From: Promethearchaeota archaeon
Lineage (GTDB): Archaea > Asgardarchaeota > Lokiarchaeia > Sigyniarchaeales > SOKP01
Direction: 5' to 3'
Assembly: GCA_016839555.1 (NCBI GenBank)
Contig: JAEOUA010000010.1
Coordinates: 320,001 to 384,000 of the forward strand
Length of the DNA stretch: 64,000 bases
The notes beneath the pieces are model-generated. The model ran no database searches, was not told where the DNA came from, and saw nothing but the letters and a program-made list of their open reading frames with translations. The position numbers and the translations under genes were made by a program. Shown piece after piece: positions 45,271 to 49,636 of this stretch (the stretch's first letter is position 1; every line of letters begins with the position of its first letter).

Positions 45271-47250
45271 ATGGATTTATTTAATCAGAGAGAAAAAATT
45301 ACCATTCCCATTACATGTAAACTATGTTTGAAAGAAATAGAATTCGAAGTTTCAGCTGAAGAATATAACAAAACGGAGTCATTTCCGATAATCAAGGAAA
45401 GTATTCATGGAGATCCTAAACATAAACTCGTTGTCCATATAAACAAATATTTAGAAATAGAAGATTTTGCAATTGATAACCAATTAAAATTGGATTCTAA
45501 AGAAATCTCTCAAGATATAATAAATAGAGTTTTAGCTGATATTGGGCTTAATGATGAAGAAATCCATTTATATTATTTGACTGTTGGAAGAGATATTATT
45601 TCTTTAGGAGAAATAGCCCTTTTTTTAGATAAGTCAAAGGAAGAGAGTAAAAAAATTACAGATAAATTTATTGAAAAGGGATTATATAAAGAAATAATTA
45701 GTGAAACCCCTTATTATGCTCCATTACCTCCCTATGCTGCCCTTTTTGAGAAATTAAAAGATTTGCAAGGGAACATCTCAAAAGTAAAGGAAAATATAAT
45801 CTTAATTAAAAAATTCTCCTCGGAATTAACTAATACTTTACAAAAATTAGAAATTAGTCCCGAAGAAGGGGATCAAGTGGAGGACATCAGAGAGATAATA
45901 TTTAATATTAAAAATGAAGTACTGGAGAATATTAAAATTAAAGACCTTAGTCCTAAAGTTCAAATAAAAGAAATTCCCAAAGGAATTGGTAATTTGGATG
46001 ATTATACAAATAATATCATGAAATCTCAGATTACAGTTATTAAAGATCAATTTAAAGATATTAATTCAAAATCTATTCAGATTATAAAAGCTCAAATTGC
46101 TGATTTAAATGATAAAATAGATGAGATGCAAGCAATAATTTCGGATAATTTAAAAAAATTAAGATTAAGTGTGCTTGAACAAACAATATGTGGCTCAGTA
46201 GAGAAACTTCTATTGTCTACATTAAAAGAGATTCAAGGGGGGCTTGATGTACAATTAAGTGTTAATGAAATGGTTTTCAATGAAGAATTGAATAATTTTA
46301 TCGAAAAATTTAATCAAGAATTTATTGATAAATTTAAAACCACAATCGGAGAGACAATTGCTAAATTGGACAATATTGATTTGGATGTGAAATATAAAGA
46401 GGATGAAATCATACAAAATATAACCGCCCAATTTAATAAATCATTACAAACAGCTGAAGAGAAAATTACAAAAATTTGCTCCGGAAACGTTAAATCATTA
46501 GCAAGTATTAAAGGTCTACTTACTCAACGCGTTGAGAGCCAAATTGAAGGATCAATTGATGACATTTTAGATGAATTACAGCTTCAAGAGCAAATGACTA
46601 AATATTTTTGGGAACAAAGTAAGAAACGTGCTTCTCTTACAATGCGAAATGTCTGGTTTATTCATTCTATAGAAGCCGCGAAAGCTCATATAATTGAAGA
46701 AATCTCTAGAGCAAAATTACGGATTTTAATAGTTGCACCAAAAATAACCGATATAAGTTTAGATTCGATTAAATCGTGTCCTTCTCATGTAAATATTCGT
46801 ATAGCAGCTTATAGTGAACCAACCATACCAGAGCATAACAAAATTCTCAAAGAATTAATCAAGATGGGAAATGTAGATTATAGAAATCGGCAATTACAGA
46901 ATCTTTGGGGTATAAATCGAGATTATGAAGAAATCATTATTTGTGTACTTTCTAAAGAAAAGATAAAAGGAAAAGAATATATCGAAATTGCCGGGATTGG
47001 TTCTATTATTGAAGAACACATAAAATTATTGGTTCCGATTCTTGAGGATGCATGGGTTGGAGCAGAAAAACAAAAAATAGAACCAGGTGTCAAAGAAAAA
47101 ACCAGTATTGAGGATAAATCCTCTGATCTTTTTAAGCGTATTAAAGAGTTACGCAAAAAAGGGAGAAGCGCTTTAGATAAAGGTTTATTAAAAGATTCTC
47201 ATGGATTTTTTGAAGAAATTGCTTCAATAATAGATAATAATTTTCAATAG
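45271..47250 (+). CDS. Zn-site / TrmB-like wHTH / long helical region / PLD-like domain protein, paralog 1
   Basis: CKLC...HGDPKH; IGLNDEEIHLY...YAPLPPY; EISRAKLRILIVAP...NRDYEEIII. Confidence 0.7.
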   Translation: MDLFNQREKITIPITCKLCLKEIEFEVSAEEYNKTESFPIIKESIHGDPKHKLVVHINKYLEIEDFAIDNQLKLDSKEISQDIINRVLADIGLNDEEIHLYYLTVGRDIISLGEIALFLDKSKEESKKITDKFIEKGLYKEIISETPYYAPLPPYAALFEKLKDLQGNISKVKENIILIKKFSSELTNTLQKLEISPEEGDQVEDIREIIFNIKNEVLENIKIKDLSPKVQIKEIPKGIGNLDDYTNNIMKSQITVIKDQFKDINSKSIQIIKAQIADLNDKIDEMQAIISDNLKKLRLSVLEQTICGSVEKLLLSTLKEIQGGLDVQLSVNEMVFNEELNNFIEKFNQEFIDKFKTTIGETIAKLDNIDLDVKYKEDEIIQNITAQFNKSLQTAEEKITKICSGNVKSLASIKGLLTQRVESQIEGSIDDILDELQLQEQMTKYFWEQSKKRASLTMRNVWFIHSIEAAKAHIIEEISRAKLRILIVAPKITDISLDSIKSCPSHVNIRIAAYSEPTIPEHNKILKELIKMGNVDYRNRQLQNLWGINRDYEEIIICVLSKEKIKGKEYIEIAGIGSIIEEHIKLLVPILEDAWVGAEKQKIEPGVKEKTSIEDKSSDLFKRIKELRKKGRSALDKGLLKDSHGFFEEIASIIDNNFQ

Positions 47251-47341
47251 AAATATTAAGTAAAATTAAATAGAAATATAAATTAATTAGTGTAAATTTT
47301 TTTATATCTTAGTGAAATTAAATCAGTAGAGGGAAAAATAA

Positions 47342-49636
47342 ATGTATTTATTTAAAGGGGAAAAGAAAAAAATAATCCCTATAAAATGCAAACTTTGCCT
47401 TCAAGAAATTAAATTTGAAGTAACGGCAGAACAATACTCAAAAACAAGCATATTTCCTATAAAAATGGAAGATATACATGGAGATCCGCAGCATAAACTT
47501 ATTGTTTATATAAATAGAAATTTAGAAATAGATGATTTTAGAATTCAAAATCTCGAAGAGGAAGAAATAGTAGAAATTCCGCAAGAAATAACAAATAAAG
47601 TTTTACGCAATCTTGGTCTTACTAATGAAGAAATAGAGTTGTATTATTTGACATCAGGAAGAGACATTGTTTCTTTAGGAGAGATGGCTCTTTTAATAGG
47701 GAAATCAAAAGAACGGTGTAAGCAGATTGCAGAAAAATTTATCGAAAAAGGATTATATAAGGAAATAATTGGAGCTACTCCGCATTATACCCCATTACCT
47801 CCTTATGCGGCATTAATTGGCCAATTAAAGGAGTTTTATGGATTTATTTCAGACATTAAAGATAAGATGCCTATTATCGTTGATAAATCCTTTTCTGAAT
47901 TCGAAACAAGCGCAGAAGATAAAGCAAAGATTAAGGAAACTGAAGAAATAATCAAAGATATCAAAGAAAAAATGTTAAAACAGGTTGATATAAAAGAAGG
48001 AGCATTAAAACCACAGATAAAAAGATCAATTAAGGATATTGGAGATTTCAGTGGGATTACAGATACTGTGGTCCAATCACAAATAGAGCAAATTAAAAAG
48101 CAATTTGAAGATATTAATAAAAAAGCAATAAACATCATTCAAACGCAAGTATCTGGATTGCGGGACCAATTAAATAATATGAAATCCATTATTGGGGAGA
48201 ATTTGAAAAAATTACGATTAGGTGTTTTGCAGAATGCTATTGGAAATTCGATCGAAAAGGTAATAACTAACAGCATGAAAGAGATACAAGATGGACTCAA
48301 TGTACAATTAAGCGTGAATGAAATGGTGTTTACGGAAGAATTAAATGATATAATAGAAAATTTTGATAAAGAATTCGTCTCAAAAATAAAAGGTTCAATC
48401 GAAAATACCCTTAGCCAGTTAGAAGGAATGGATTTAGGAGTAGGACATGATCAAAAAGCGATTTTTGAAAATTTGGGAGATCAATTCAATCAAGCGTTAA
48501 AAGTTGCTGAACAAAAAATAAATGAGGTATATTCGGATATTTTTCAATCATTTGATAGTATTAAAGATTTATTTAGCAAACGAGTGGTAAGTAAAATTGA
48601 TGACACGCTCAGTGAAATCTTAGATCGCGTAAATTTGCAAGAAAAAGTCACTAAGAAATTTTGGGATCAGGCTAAGAAGAAATCAACTTTTACGATGCAC
48701 GATGTTTGGTTTATCCACTCTCCAGAAGCTGCCAGAGCTCATATTAATGAAGAAATATCTCGAGCAAAATTACGAATACTTATAGTAGCTCCTGAAATCA
48801 CTGATATTGATCTAGAGGCAATAAAATCATGTCCTTCTCATGTGAATATTCGTGTTGCAGCCTCAATAGATAAATCAAAACCACTCCATAAAGAGATAGC
48901 TCAAGAATTAGATAAAATTAATAATGCAGTTTGTAGAAACCGAAAATTGCAGAATCTTTGGGGAATAAATCGTGATTACGAAGAGGTAATATTGTGTGTT
49001 GTTTCTAAAAAAGAAATAAGCGGAAGGGAGCATACAGAAATAGCCGGGATTGGCTCAATTATAGAAGAGCATATTAAGATTTTCGTTCCTATTTTAGAAG
49101 AGGCTTGGATGGGTTCAGTAAAATCACAGACAAGCAAATTAGGGTTTTCTACTGAAATAGAACAAAGAAAAACCAAACCTATATCAATGCTTGAACCTGA
49201 AAGTATTGAAAAACAAAAGACAATGCCTAGTGTTAAAAAGTTAGAAACGTCTGATTTGGAAGTAAAGTTGAAAAAACCTATTGTAGAAGAGCAACCAGCA
49301 AAAGAGAGCATCATCTCGAAAACTGAACCAACACCAATTCAGCAACCAAGTGATGAAAAAAAAGAATCTATACCATTAGGAGAATTACCCATATTTGAGC
49401 AGTTACTCATAGGATTAGAAAATATTCAAAAGAATATATATGATATGAAAAGATCAGAAATCTCAGATGCATTGAATGATTTCTATAAAAAATATGTAAC
49501 ACATGTTGGACTGAATACAATGGCTAAGAACATTCATAAAAGAAGCATGGTTCTCGATTCAATGGATAAAGAATTAACTGAAAAAGAGAAAAAAGATCTA
49601 AGTGATCTAATAGAAAAGTGGAAAAATAGTTTTTAA
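47342..49636 (+). CDS. Zn-site / TrmB-like wHTH / long helical region / PLD-like domain protein, paralog 2
   Basis: Colinear with paralog 1 over about 590 aa, then a low-complexity linker and a distinct C-terminal helical module. Confidence 0.7.
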   Translation: MYLFKGEKKKIIPIKCKLCLQEIKFEVTAEQYSKTSIFPIKMEDIHGDPQHKLIVYINRNLEIDDFRIQNLEEEEIVEIPQEITNKVLRNLGLTNEEIELYYLTSGRDIVSLGEMALLIGKSKERCKQIAEKFIEKGLYKEIIGATPHYTPLPPYAALIGQLKEFYGFISDIKDKMPIIVDKSFSEFETSAEDKAKIKETEEIIKDIKEKMLKQVDIKEGALKPQIKRSIKDIGDFSGITDTVVQSQIEQIKKQFEDINKKAINIIQTQVSGLRDQLNNMKSIIGENLKKLRLGVLQNAIGNSIEKVITNSMKEIQDGLNVQLSVNEMVFTEELNDIIENFDKEFVSKIKGSIENTLSQLEGMDLGVGHDQKAIFENLGDQFNQALKVAEQKINEVYSDIFQSFDSIKDLFSKRVVSKIDDTLSEILDRVNLQEKVTKKFWDQAKKKSTFTMHDVWFIHSPEAARAHINEEISRAKLRILIVAPEITDIDLEAIKSCPSHVNIRVAASIDKSKPLHKEIAQELDKINNAVCRNRKLQNLWGINRDYEEVILCVVSKKEISGREHTEIAGIGSIIEEHIKIFVPILEEAWMGSVKSQTSKLGFSTEIEQRKTKPISMLEPESIEKQKTMPSVKKLETSDLEVKLKKPIVEEQPAKESIISKTEPTPIQQPSDEKKESIPLGELPIFEQLLIGLENIQKNIYDMKRSEISDALNDFYKKYVTHVGLNTMAKNIHKRSMVLDSMDKELTEKEKKDLSDLIEKWKNSF

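What the first reader, a model, noticed from the sequence alone, without database searches (positions are those of the whole stretch)
45271..49636. Paralogous TrmB-like proteins stretched by about 290 aa of helical rod, with different C-terminal modules
Seen: both have a CxxC..HxxxxH N-domain, a TrmB-like wHTH, a long amphipathic helical region with a conserved core (NLKKLRL, GLxVQLSVNEMVFxEELN) and a PLD-like domain lacking HKD. Paralog 1 ends in a helical hairpin with an MIT/TPR-like pattern (LRKKGRSALDKGLLKDSHGFFEEIA). Paralog 2 ends in the module shared with the GTPase-cluster gene. Known: ordinary TrmB has only a short linker between wHTH and sensor domains. Inference: a rod-shaped heterodimer, co-expressed with the longin-WH protein, acting as a chromatin-to-membrane or ESCRT-associated scaffold.
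Basis: partly seen in the sequence, partly recalled or inferred. Interest (0 to 1): 0.7.

Follow-up and report, generated by a model that had tools for sequence, protein, structure and literature searches.

The report
Stretched TrmB-like proteins of Lokiarchaeia
Two neighbouring genes encode elongated relatives of the archaeal DNA-binding protein TrmBL2. One ends in a small helical bundle that resembles the eukaryotic ESCRT-I Vps28 C-terminal domain. In related Asgard archaea the gene always follows a longin-type adaptor gene and lies next to surface-receptor genes, which suggests an undescribed and testable surface-to-cytoplasm module.

Summary
ORFs 45271-47250 (659 aa) and 47342-49636 (764 aa) are 54% identical over 602 aa. 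Both have a C2H2 beta domain, a wHTH, about 290 helical residues and an HKD-less PLD-like domain; the tails differ.

Structure searches put TrmB and TrmBL2 on top (Z 14.7 and 13.7). Shorter relatives hit Pfam TrmB directly.

Three refinements:
- The "rod" is four or five helices with 11/22-residue (3.67) periodicity. It is not a heptad coiled coil.
- The 764-aa form is ancestral and present in 25/25 genomes of the family. The 659-aa form is a recent, fast-evolving duplicate that lost the tail, so a heterodimer cannot be the general rule.
- The tail is a confident four-helix bundle. Its best PDB match by two methods is Vps28-C (Z 10.9-11.7), with weak profile support (P 9e-4).

The gene order is conserved: receptor array, then longin-like P3, TrmB-like gene and MBL hydrolase. 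Short relatives elsewhere carry a P3-like N-domain fused in front of the wHTH.

My best reading is an output or adaptor subunit working with P3. DNA binding, P3 binding and ESCRT contact remain inferred. The MIT-like claim for paralog 1 was not tested. First readers of this scan noted the same family in other genomes.

The parts
45271..47250 (+). Paralog 1 (P0001, 659 aa). Domains: C2H2 beta domain 1-72; wHTH 80-152; helical region about 155-451; PLD-like domain 456-601; short conserved helical tail 602-659. It lacks the four-helix tail module.
   Evidence: PLD HMM hit at 456-601, E 8e-75; no tail hit; tail motif IK.LRKKG..AL..G.L..SH.FF conserved in 5 orthologues; nested long-stem clade.
47342..49636 (+). 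Paralog 2 (P0002, 764 aa). This is the ancestral full-length form of the family.
47342..47557 (+). N-terminal beta-rich domain (aa 1-72) with invariant C16, C19, H46 and H51. It is presumably zinc-binding. Its fold was not identified.
   Evidence: Pfam gives no hit. The nearest atlas clusters are Asgard hypothetical proteins only. A weak second copy of the module occurs in a 177-aa protein of the same genome (E 0.0013).
47579..47797 (+). TrmB-type winged helix-turn-helix (aa 80-152).
   Evidence: VIA-align matches residues 79-179 to archaeal wHTH regulators at Z 9.4-10.8, and TrmBL2 aligns from residue 79. The family wHTH HMM hits PF01978-positive relatives at E 1e-16. Net charge is 0 here, -5 in paralog 1, and -4.5 as the family median.
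47804..48676 (+). Helical region (aa 155-445). The first helix, 155-214, has heptad periodicity. Three long helices follow (236-291, 298-360, 371-445) with hendecad (3.67-3.74) periodicity and a 22-residue recurrence. The breaks are conserved (NLKKLRLG at 287-294; a Gly-rich stretch at 361-370).
   Evidence: Profile hit to apolipoprotein A-IV at E 0.004. PF01442 is listed among the precomputed domains of seven members and reaches 97.7 bits in a 1217-aa paralogue.
48692..49132 (+). PLD-fold domain without an HKD motif (aa 451-597). It is of the TrmB/TrmBL2 C-domain type and is among the best-conserved parts of the protein.
   Evidence: VIA-align: TrmB 2f5t Z 14.7 (rmsd 2.7, 131 aa), NucT Z 14.2, TrmB 3qph Z 14.1. 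Foldseek hits to TrmBL2, F13, Nuc and FAM83. No HxK(x)4D motif. Conservation by 10-residue block; the invariant residues (for example N502, R504, H516, N528, R534, D545, E547) are listed.
49133..49372 (+). Disordered, poorly conserved linker (aa 598-677). Its length ranges from 3 to 148 aa across the family.
49373..49633 (+). C-terminal four-helix-bundle module (aa 678-764), Vps28-C-like. It is a mobile domain found at the C-terminus of many Asgard proteins.
   Evidence: AF2 pLDDT 91.5, pTM 0.81. Vps28-C is the top hit. 234 cluster representatives carry the module. hhalign against Asgard Vps28-C gives P 8.9e-4.
44000..45241 (+). Upstream partner gene P3 (413 aa). Others call it longin plus winged-helix. 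Its stop codon lies 29 nt before paralog 1, and a GGAGG box sits between them.
   Evidence: Residues 45-119 are homologous to the N-domain fused to short TrmB-like relatives (P 1.9e-5). There is a weak wHTH hit at 174-287. I did not test the longin fold.
49671..50708 (-). Metallo-beta-lactamase-fold gene. In other genomes it is conserved immediately downstream of the TrmB-like gene and co-directional with it. It is inverted here.
35629..43686 (-). Divergently transcribed array of three surface-protein genes that share the cytoplasmic tail motif IRKLRKYRKSLK. The same array flanks the operon in other genomes.
   Evidence: The tail-to-P3 docking claim comes from an earlier report (e1-5561629) and was not tested here.
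9861..10106 (-). Second copy of the tail module in this window. It forms the C-terminus of a 198-aa helical protein that lies between a Ras-family GTPase gene and a longin-Arf-like GTPase gene.
   Evidence: (E 0.0046).

Best explanation
These genes encode a Lokiarchaeial family built on the TrmBL2/TrmB frame: a wHTH, a dimerising helix and an HKD-less PLD-like domain.

Four parts have been added to that frame:
- an N-terminal C2H2 beta domain;
- about 230 residues of hendecad-periodic helices inserted between the dimerising helix and the PLD-like domain;
- a flexible linker;
- a C-terminal Vps28-C-like four-helix docking domain.

I propose that the protein is the output or adaptor subunit of a conserved module made of surface receptors, the longin-like/winged-helix protein P3 and this protein. 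In this model it binds P3 and presents its wHTH pair to DNA, or to another partner. Its tail recruits a further, still unknown, protein.

The 764-aa gene is the ancestral form and probably acts as a homodimer. The 659-aa gene is a recent duplicate that swapped the docking tail for a short basic helical hairpin, and it may form mixed dimers with only one docking tail.

Shown here: the domain anatomy, the structural kinship with TrmB/TrmBL2, the periodicity, the phylogeny, the synteny, the fusion of a P3-like domain in relatives, and the mobility of the tail module.

Inferred: dimerisation, DNA binding, contact with P3, and what the tail binds.
For: - Architecture and kinship. Foldseek puts TrmBL2 5bpd on top at E 9e-8. 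VIA-align gives TrmB 2f5t Z 14.7 for residues 454-597 and aligns TrmBL2 across 79-595 at Z 13.7-13.8. Distant relatives that the family HMMs hit at E 1e-16 (wHTH) and 1e-39 (PLD-like) carry Pfam TrmB PF01978 at E 4e-10.
- Dimerising helix. Only helix 155-214 has a 3.5-residue period, as expected of the TrmB dimerising helix. Helices 236-445 peak at 3.67-3.74, and lag 22 is the strongest autocorrelation.
- Distribution. The gene is present in 25/25 genomes of the window's own family, and more than 140 homologues were found, those that carry a source name being labelled as Asgard lineages.
- Link to P3. A P3 homologue lies immediately upstream in every locus with enough flank, across at least 6 genera and 2 families. 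Receptor-type genes flank the operon in 7 further loci.
- Fusion evidence. The roughly 460-aa TrmB-like relatives in two other Asgard families carry an N-terminal domain homologous to P3 residues 45-119. hhalign gives P 1.9e-5 and probability 77%; the best of 60 column shuffles is 0.0066, and unrelated domains give 0.1 or worse.
- Tail. AF2 pLDDT is 91.5. Vps28-C is first in Foldseek (TM 0.75-0.78) and in the Foldseek-independent VIA-align search (Z 10.9), and scores Z 11.7 inside the full model. The enlarged profile against Asgard Vps28-C gives P 8.9e-4 over 54 collinear columns, while about 50 controls give 0.0043 or worse. The module is C-terminal in 234 protein clusters. In this genome it also sits beside GTPase, Roadblock-like and gelsolin-like genes.
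- Literature. Asgard archaea are reported to have many multidomain proteins with Vps28-C joined to longin, adaptin or HTH domains (PMC10936438). Loki Vps28/Vps23 interact with the winged-helix protein Vps22 in yeast two-hybrid assays (PMC9192718).
- Duplicate. Tail-less forms make a 100/100-supported clade with a 0.54 stem, nested among tailed forms.
Against: - Pfam TrmB does not hit P0001 or P0002 themselves.
- The wHTH is acidic in most members (median net charge -4.5), which is unusual for a DNA binder and fits a protein-binding winged helix equally well.
- For a four-helix bundle, Z 10.9 is tied with CheA P1/HPt at Z 10.6, and the tool notes that helical bundles need about Z 13 to stand out.
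- Pfam VPS28 hits neither the tail nor 63 other hosts of the module. The small-alignment hhalign gave only P 0.06.
- P3 shows no profile similarity to ESCRT-II Vps22 (P 0.12).
- The locus is not next to ESCRT genes.
- No operator-like repeat is conserved upstream.
- The helical region was modelled at low confidence as a monomer, so its packing and any dimer are unknown.
Confidence: 0.45

Rival explanations
1. A non-DNA-binding cytoplasmic scaffold. The winged helix has been re-used as a protein-binding module, as in ESCRT-II and cullins. Together with P3 and the receptor tails, the protein forms a sub-membrane adaptor layer or sorting complex, and the Vps28-C-like tail recruits ESCRT-II-type factors. 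This is.
For: - The wHTH is acidic (median -4.5, range -8 to +2).
- Vps28-C is the best structural match of the tail.
- The tail module recurs next to small GTPase, Roadblock-like and gelsolin-like genes.
- Synteny with receptor arrays and P3 is conserved.
- The literature describes Vps28-C fusion proteins in Asgard archaea and proposes they reach ESCRT-II without ESCRT-I (PMC10936438).
Against: - The whole frame is that of DNA-binding TrmBL2/TrmB.
- K121 and K123 at the start of the recognition helix are nearly invariant.
- There is no ESCRT gene in the neighbourhood.
- P3 is not detectably Vps22-like.
- Vps28-C homology is only weakly supported by sequence.
Confidence: 0.3
2. A lipid- or membrane-surface-binding protein. 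The 11/22-mer amphipathic helices behave like those of apolipoproteins, perilipins or phasins: bundled in solution and opening on a lipid surface. This would tether a TrmB-like DNA-binding head to the membrane or to lipid bodies.
For: - The hydrophobic period is 3.67-3.74 with a lag-22 recurrence.
- The family profile hits apolipoprotein A-IV (E 0.004).
- PF01442 appears in seven family members and is above the curated cut-off (97.7 bits) in a 1217-aa paralogue of the same genome.
- The length of the helical insert varies greatly among relatives (about 110 to 1000 aa), as repeat-built lipid binders do.
Against: - The hydrophobic stripe is narrow, at 3-4 of 11 positions, which fits helix-helix packing better than a broad class-A lipid face.
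- There are only 2 prolines in 290 residues, so the 22-mers are not proline-punctuated.
- The region carries strongly conserved polar motifs (NLKKLRLG, QLSVNEMVF) that suggest a specific protein contact.
- Neither P0001 nor P0002 hits PF01442.
Confidence: 0.12
3. An ordinary sugar-sensing TrmB transcription factor that merely has a long linker.
For: One source annotates a homologue as a sugar-specific regulator TrmB. The PLD-like domain aligns best to the N-subdomain of the TrmB sugar-binding domain.
Against: - The alignment to TrmB stops at chain residue 243. The C-terminal beta-barrel subdomain, which to my knowledge carries most sugar contacts, has no counterpart: residue 597 is followed by a disordered linker.
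- No sugar transporter or glycolytic gene is in the conserved neighbourhood, which holds receptor genes, P3, an MBL-fold gene and an FAD-binding-domain gene.
- The extra Zn domain, the helical insert and the tail are conserved across the family.
Confidence: 0.04

Closest known systems
TrmBL2 (Thermococcales chromatin protein; PDB 5BPD, 5BQT) and TrmB (PDB 3QPH, 2F5T)
   Same: The domain order is the same: wHTH, then a heptad helix, then an HKD-less PLD-fold domain. TrmBL2 aligns over model residues 79-595 (219-231 residues, Z 13.7-13.8), and the TrmB N-subdomain aligns at Z 14.7, rmsd 2.7 A. Distant relatives of the family hit Pfam PF01978. As in TrmBL2, there is no sugar-binding beta-barrel subdomain.
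   Different: About 230 extra residues of hendecad-periodic helices lie between the dimerising helix and the PLD-like domain. There is also an extra N-terminal C2H2 beta domain, a disordered linker and a C-terminal four-helix module. The wHTH is mostly acidic. The gene is tied to a longin-like partner gene and to receptor arrays rather than to sugar-metabolism genes. P0001 and P0002 themselves are below Pfam TrmB detection.
Vps28 C-terminal domain (ESCRT-I; PDB 2J9U, 2J9W, 2G3K) and the Asgard 'Vps28-C' fusion proteins described by Makarova et al. 2024 (PMC10936438)
   Same: Both are four-helix bundles of about 85 residues. TM is 0.75-0.78, rmsd 2.1-2.9 A and Z 10.9-11.7. The weak profile similarity to Asgard Vps28-C is collinear (P 8.9e-4). 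As in the published Asgard fusions, the module is a C-terminal add-on that appears near longin, Roadblock and GTPase genes.
   Different: There is no steadiness box, so this is not a Vps28 orthologue. Pfam VPS28 does not recognise the module. The structural score is tied with HPt/CheA-P1 bundles. Whether this exact architecture is among the published fusions could not be checked, because the figure is not held as text.
Apolipoprotein A-I/A-IV/E-type 11/22-mer helical repeats (Pfam PF01442)
   Same: Both show a 3.67-residue hydrophobic period and a 22-residue recurrence. The family profile gives a weak hit to ApoA-IV. PF01442 is above its cut-off in a paralogue.
   Different: The hydrophobic stripe is narrow, there is no proline punctuation, and the polar motifs are conserved. 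There is no evidence of lipid binding.
Rab-like GTPase plus TrmB-like regulator gene pair of Lokiarchaeia
   Same: In both cases a TrmB-type protein is genetically coupled to a eukaryote-like signalling protein in the same archaeal class.
   Different: The partner differs (longin-like P3 rather than a Rab-like GTPase), and so does the TrmB-like architecture. I did not re-examine that pair.

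Membership tests
TrmB/TrmBL2 family | TrmB-type winged helix-turn-helix (Pfam PF01978) | tested here: met
   Pfam gives no direct hit for P0001 or P0002. However, the family wHTH HMM hits relatives at E 1e-16 that themselves score PF01978 at E 4e-10 to 7e-10. The model also aligns to TrmBL2 from residue 79, and to archaeal wHTH regulators at Z 9.4-10.8.
TrmB/TrmBL2 family | Amphipathic dimerising helix directly after the wHTH | tested here: met
   Helix 155-214 has a 3.5-residue hydrophobic period: P(3.5) = 56 against P(3.67) = 10. 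Dimerisation itself was not tested.
TrmB/TrmBL2 family | HKD-less PLD-fold domain after the helix | tested here: met
   TrmB 2f5t Z 14.7, TrmB 3qph Z 14.1, TrmBL2 Z 13.7. No HxK(x)4D motif.
TrmB/TrmBL2 family | C-terminal beta-barrel sugar-binding subdomain (TrmB proper, not TrmBL2) | tested here: not met
   The alignment to TrmB ends at chain residue 243. A disordered linker follows model residue 597.
TrmB/TrmBL2 family | DNA binding | not testable with these tools
   Only indirect signs are available: K121 and K123 are nearly invariant, but the domain is acidic in most members.
Phospholipase D superfamily (active enzymes) | HxK(x)4D catalytic motif | tested here: not met
   The motif is absent from both proteins. 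The fold is PLD-like: NucT Z 14.2, Nuc Z 13.0.
Vps28 C-terminal domain | Four-helix bundle of Vps28-C topology | tested here: met
   Model pLDDT is 91.5. Matches: 2j9w TM 0.75-0.78; 2j9u Z 10.9, rmsd 2.7 over 85 aa; 2j9w_B Z 11.7. The match is not unique, since CheA P1 scores Z 10.6.
Vps28 C-terminal domain | Sequence-profile membership (Pfam PF03997 or similarity to Asgard Vps28-C) | tested here: inconclusive
   PF03997 does not hit the tail, either in this genome or in the genomes that carry the family, and does not hit 63 other hosts of the module. hhalign gives P 0.06 with 24 sequences and P 8.9e-4 with 162 sequences, against controls of 0.0043 or worse.
Vps28 (ESCRT-I subunit) | N-terminal steadiness-box hairpin that joins the ESCRT-I headpiece | tested here: not met
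   PF03997 positions 1-86 have no counterpart. A disordered linker and the PLD-like domain lie upstream of the tail.
Vps28 C-terminal domain | Binding to ESCRT-II | not testable with these tools
   This needs a binding assay. P3 is not detectably Vps22-like.
MIT domain (paralog 1 tail) | Three-helix bundle of about 75 residues that binds ESCRT-III MIM motifs | tested here: inconclusive
   Pfam gives no hit at E up to 1 for residues 600-659. The conserved part is only about 40 residues, enough for two helices.
Apolipoprotein A1/A4/E repeats (PF01442) | 11/22-residue amphipathic repeats | tested here: met
   The period is 3.67-3.74 and lag 22 is the top autocorrelation. P0001 and P0002 do not hit PF01442; a paralogue scores 97.7 bits.
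Apolipoprotein A1/A4/E repeats (PF01442) | Proline-punctuated 22-mers with a broad class-A lipid face | tested here: not met
   There are 2 prolines in residues 155-445, and only 3-4 of 11 positions are hydrophobic.

The most novel reading that the evidence does not exclude
The locus encodes a prokaryotic receptor-to-genome relay built from eukaryote-like parts. Cytoplasmic tails of variable surface receptors dock on the longin-like protein P3. P3 holds a TrmBL2-derived dimer through the contact that is covalent in the fused relatives. The Vps28-C-like tail links the complex to winged-helix (ESCRT-II-type) proteins. Receptor state would then decide whether the wHTH pair sits on DNA or at the membrane. 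The tail-less paralog, whose basic hairpin (IKELRKKGRSAL) resembles the receptor-tail motif (IRKLRKYRKSLK), would act as a competitor or modulator.
Probability: 0.12. Interest if true: 0.85.

Novelty: new variant of a known kind. Interest (0 to 1): 0.6.

Why it matters
Asgard archaea are studied for the prokaryotic roots of eukaryotic trafficking and signalling. This family joins a classical archaeal DNA-binding frame (TrmBL2) to modules otherwise discussed as eukaryotic signature parts: a Vps28-C-like bundle and a longin-like partner. The gene order with surface receptors is fixed.

The gene was found in all 25 searched genomes of the window's own family.

The family also defines two mobile Asgard domains that have no Pfam model: the C2H2 beta domain and the four-helix tail, which occurs in 234 protein clusters. 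It shows as well that the TrmB-like proteins of these organisms carry hendecad rather than heptad helical inserts, of very variable length.

I found no paper describing this architecture, but the search covers open-access texts only. First readers of this scan have noted the family in several other genomes.

Tried and rejected
- Complex prediction. I submitted P3 against the N-terminal (1-155) and C-terminal (450-764) parts of P0002. The result was no verdict (score 0.00, controls not run). It counts neither for nor against binding.
Context was taken from the genome search and the fetch from genomes instead.
- RNA evidence. No RNA holder is listed for the stretch; only DNA runs from marine and marsh sediments hold it.
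- Direct family searches. Pfam and NCBIfam on the whole proteins and on the separate tails and N-domain gave nothing significant. The family profile against PDB sequences gave only helical noise, as did the tail profile.
- Protein atlas. The tail gave no usable hit. The N-domain gave only unnamed Asgard clusters.
- Vps28 links. PF03997 has no match in the window's own genome. hhalign with the small tail alignment gave P 0.06.
- P3 against Vps22/EAP30 by hhalign gave P 0.12, so no link. The P3 profile against PDB gave only a weak MarR-like wHTH hit.
- Operator search. The 15-nt motif repeated twice upstream of P3 is not found in any other locus. The sigma-70 and terminator scan is at background level and is not applicable to archaea.
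- Supplements of PMC10936438 were searched for this architecture. I found nothing specific, and Figure 6B is not held as text.
- Rejected: one continuous 290-aa coiled coil; an obligate heterodimer; an active PLD enzyme; a sugar-sensing TrmB.

Full report
**Observation.** The window has about 30% G+C. ORFs 45271-47250 (P0001, 659 aa) and 47342-49636 (P0002, 764 aa) lie on the plus strand behind ORF 44000-45241 (P0003, here called P3, 413 aa).
- P0001 and P0002 are 54% identical over residues 1-602 and unrelated after that.
- Both carry CxxC at 16-19 and HxxxxH at 46-51, and neither has an HxK(x)4D motif.
- Pfam and NCBIfam give no significant hit for any of the three proteins.

**Family and distribution.** P0001 finds more than 140 homologues. 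Those that carry a source name are labelled as Asgard lineages (Promethearchaeota, Lokiarchaeota and others), and most are 720-770 aa, the P0002 type.
- In 46 aligned members C16, C19, H46 and H51 are invariant, and so are many residues of the wHTH and of the C-terminal alpha/beta domain.
- Among 151 genomes of the phylum, full-length matches occur in 25/25 genomes of the window's own family and in 1 of 2 genomes of a sister family. Other families hold shorter or more distant relatives.
- A maximum-likelihood tree places the five tail-less 648-680-aa proteins (P0001 type) as one 100/100-supported clade. It has a long stem (0.54) and is nested among tailed proteins.
- Three other genomes of the same genus show no close P0001-type copy, although those assemblies are fragmented.
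- The paralog pair is therefore a recent, narrow duplication, and the tailed form is ancestral.

**Anatomy.** An AF2 model of P0002 built on the 46-sequence alignment gives six parts:
- a beta-rich N-domain, residues 1-70 (pLDDT 81-87);
- a wHTH, 81-151;
- helices 155-195, 199-214, 236-291, 298-360 and 371-445 (mean pLDDT 31-66 per 10-residue block; folded as a monomer);
- an alpha/beta domain, 455-592 (pLDDT 73-90);
- a disordered stretch, 598-677;
- four helices, 684-763 (pLDDT 81-89).

Foldseek ranks TrmBL2 (5bpd, E 9e-8) first, followed by PLD-fold proteins and TrmB. VIA-align gives the following:
- TrmB 2f5t Z 14.7 (rmsd 2.7 A, 131 residues) for model residues 454-597;
- NucT Z 14.2;
- TrmB 3qph Z 14.1;
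- TrmBL2 aligned over model residues 79-595 at Z 13.7-13.8;
- archaeal wHTH regulators at Z 9.4-10.8 for residues 79-179.

The alignment to TrmB stops before its beta-barrel sugar subdomain, so the frame is that of TrmBL2. Sequence evidence agrees. Family-built HMMs hit roughly 460-aa relatives at E 1e-16 (wHTH) and 1e-39 (PLD-like domain), and those relatives score Pfam TrmB PF01978 at E 4e-10.

**The "rod".** The hydrophobicity spectrum, averaged over the family, differs between the first helix and the rest.
- It peaks at 3.5 residues only in helix 155-214.
- Helices 236-291, 298-360 and 371-445 peak at 3.68, 3.74 and 3.68. Power at 3.67 exceeds power at 3.5 by 11-fold, 2.6-fold and 27-fold respectively.
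- The strongest sequence autocorrelation is at lag 22.
- Conserved hydrophobic positions follow an i, i+4, i+8 pattern in each 11 residues. The stripe is narrow, and residues 155-445 hold only two prolines.

This explains the apolipoprotein-type hits: ApoA-IV at E 0.004, PF01442 in several members, and 97.7 bits in a 1217-aa paralogue of this genome that also has a PF01978 wHTH and the PLD-like domain. The insert is thus a segmented, hendecad-periodic helical domain of very variable length in the superfamily. It is not a heptad coiled coil. Its packing could not be determined. With four helical passes, the PLD-like domain could return close to the wHTH, but that is only an inference.

**The tails.** The last 88 residues of P0002, folded with 24 sequences, give a four-helix bundle at pLDDT 91.5 and pTM 0.81.
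- Foldseek's two best hits are Vps28-C 2j9w (E 0.045-0.086, TM 0.75-0.78, rmsd 2.1-2.9 A).
- The Foldseek-independent VIA-align search of 48,161 chains ranks yeast Vps28-C 2j9u first (Z 10.9, rmsd 2.7 A over 85 residues). CheA P1 at Z 10.6 is tied with it.
- Inside the full model, 2j9w_B scores Z 11.7.
- Pfam VPS28 does not hit the tail.
- hhalign against 18 Asgard Vps28 C-domains gives P 0.06 with the small alignment. With a 162-sequence alignment it gives P 8.9e-4 over 54 collinear columns.
- Controls for that comparison were much weaker: 40 column shuffles, the reversed alignment, the Vps28 N-half and eight other helical comparisons (four family segments, each against both profiles) gave P of 0.0043 or worse.

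I rate true kinship with Vps28-C at about one half.

The module is mobile. A profile search of 1.84 billion representatives finds 234 clusters. The module is almost always C-terminal, and the host proteins are 56-1080 aa long. Pfam recognises almost nothing in 63 of these hosts. In this genome the module also ends three other proteins:
- a 618-aa paralogue that has the PLD-like domain;
- a 333-aa protein flanked by Roadblock-like, gelsolin-like and FIST genes;
- the 198-aa protein at window 9858-10454, between a Ras-family GTPase gene and a longin-Arf-like GTPase gene.

Published work reports many Asgard proteins that join Vps28-C to longin, adaptin or HTH domains (PMC10936438). It also reports two-hybrid contacts of Loki Vps28/Vps23 with the winged-helix protein Vps22 (PMC9192718).

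The tail of P0001 is a conserved motif of about 40 residues, IK.LRKKG..AL..G.L..SH.FF, seen in five orthologues. Its MIT-like nature was not tested. Its first part resembles the cytoplasmic motif IRKLRKYRKSLK of the neighbouring surface proteins. A loose pattern covering both occurs only six times in 1.8 million six-frame residues. The pattern was defined after the fact, so this is only a lead.

**Context.** P3's stop codon lies 29 nt before P0001, with a GGAGG box between them. P0001 and P0002 are 91 nt apart.
- A P3 homologue (52-63% identical within the family, 36% in the sister family) lies immediately upstream of the TrmB-like gene in every locus with enough flank.
- In seven longer loci, from four genera and two families, arrays of surface-protein genes flank the operon (divergent from P3 in six, downstream and co-directional in the sister-family locus). 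In five of them an MBL-fold gene and an FAD-binding-domain gene follow the TrmB-like gene.
- The MBL-fold gene is inverted in this window only.
- The roughly 460-aa TrmB-like relatives in two other Asgard families, which have small genomes, carry a 128-aa N-terminal domain homologous to P3 residues 45-119. hhalign gives P 1.9e-5 and probability 77%. The best of 60 shuffles is 0.0066, and unrelated domains give 0.1 or worse.
- This fusion, together with the invariant adjacency, is my main reason to think that P3 and the TrmB-like protein act together.
- I did not test whether P3 is a longin. Pfam is silent, and only a weak MarR-like wHTH match appears at residues 174-287.
- P3 is not detectably Vps22-like, and the only EAP30 gene of the genome is on another contig.

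**Function.** DNA binding is open.
- The frame is that of a DNA binder, and K121 and K123 at the start of the recognition helix are nearly invariant.
- However, the wHTH has a median net charge of -4.5 across the family. It is 0 in P0002 and -5 in P0001.
- The PLD-like domain is among the most conserved parts and has many invariant polar residues. This points to a specific ligand or partner.
- I therefore commit, at 0.45, to an output or adaptor subunit of a receptor/P3/TrmB-like module. The rivals are a non-DNA-binding scaffold (0.30), a lipid-surface binder (0.12) and an ordinary sugar-sensing TrmB (0.04).

**Novelty.** I found no paper on this architecture. Its parts are known kinds, and Vps28-C fusions in Asgard archaea have been described in general terms. 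I therefore class it as a new variant of a known kind.

Notes of this scan show that first readers saw the same family in several other genomes, and one suggested a Vps28-like bundle. One follow-up report claims that the receptor tails dock on P3, which I did not test.

Noticed in passing
L028:739-1122, L084:1533-1916 (and L029, L030, L085, L086): TrmB-like proteins of about 460 aa in two other Asgard families with small genomes. They have a PF01978 wHTH, a shorter helical region and the PLD-like domain, and no tail. Each carries an N-terminal 128-aa domain homologous to residues 45-119 of the window's P3 protein (hhalign P 1.9e-5). This is a fusion that links the two gene products.
   Followed up: yes
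window 9858-10454 (-), with 9239-9838 (+) and 10601-11509 (+): A 198-aa helical protein that ends in the same four-helix tail module. It sits between a Ras-family GTPase gene and a gene that fuses a weak longin match to an Arf/Ras-type GTPase domain.
   Followed up: partly
L032:2672-3664 (G000 contig C1:321662-322660): A 330-aa protein that ends in the tail module (E 4e-9). It is flanked by a Roadblock/LC7-like gene, a gelsolin-repeat-like gene and a FIST-domain gene.
   Followed up: partly
L035:1252-4902 (-) (G000 contig C7:45751-49401): A 1217-aa paralogue with a Pfam TrmB wHTH at the N-terminus, about 1000 residues of apolipoprotein-like repeats (PF01442, 97.7 bits, above the cut-off) and the PLD-like domain at the C-terminus. 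The helical insert of this superfamily can grow about tenfold.
   Followed up: partly
L033:1096-1893 (+) and L033:187-945 (-): A 265-aa protein made only of a coiled coil plus the same PLD-like domain (E 3e-12). It is divergent from a gene with a Roadblock/LC7-like match.
   Followed up: no
L036:1200-1733 (-): A 177-aa protein whose C-terminal 65 residues weakly match the C2H2 N-domain of the family (E 0.0013; CPLC ... H.H ... H). The Zn domain may therefore also be a mobile module.
   Followed up: no
window 43750-43784: Two tandem copies, 20 nt apart, of TTCATWATATAAATG lie in the divergent intergenic region between the surface-protein gene and P3. The motif is not found in any of the other loci fetched, and 3 of 100 shuffles reach two matches.
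   Followed up: yes
window 49671-50708 (-): The MBL-fold gene lies downstream of the TrmB-like gene and co-directional with it in all other loci examined, including a genome of the same genus. It is inverted in this window.
   Followed up: partly
window 47140-47180 (P0001 aa 624-637) versus window 35629-43686 (receptor tails): The basic start of the P0001 tail (IKELRKKGRSAL) resembles the conserved cytoplasmic motif of the three neighbouring surface proteins (IRKLRKYRKSLK). A loose shared pattern occurs only 6 times in the genome's six-frame ORFs, and 4 of the 6 are these proteins. The pattern was defined post hoc.
   Followed up: partly
L057 (G147 contig C4:116000-135999): This genome has two full-length TrmB-like genes about 7 kb apart on the same strand, with surface-protein genes between them. 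Only one of the two is preceded by a P3 gene.
   Followed up: no
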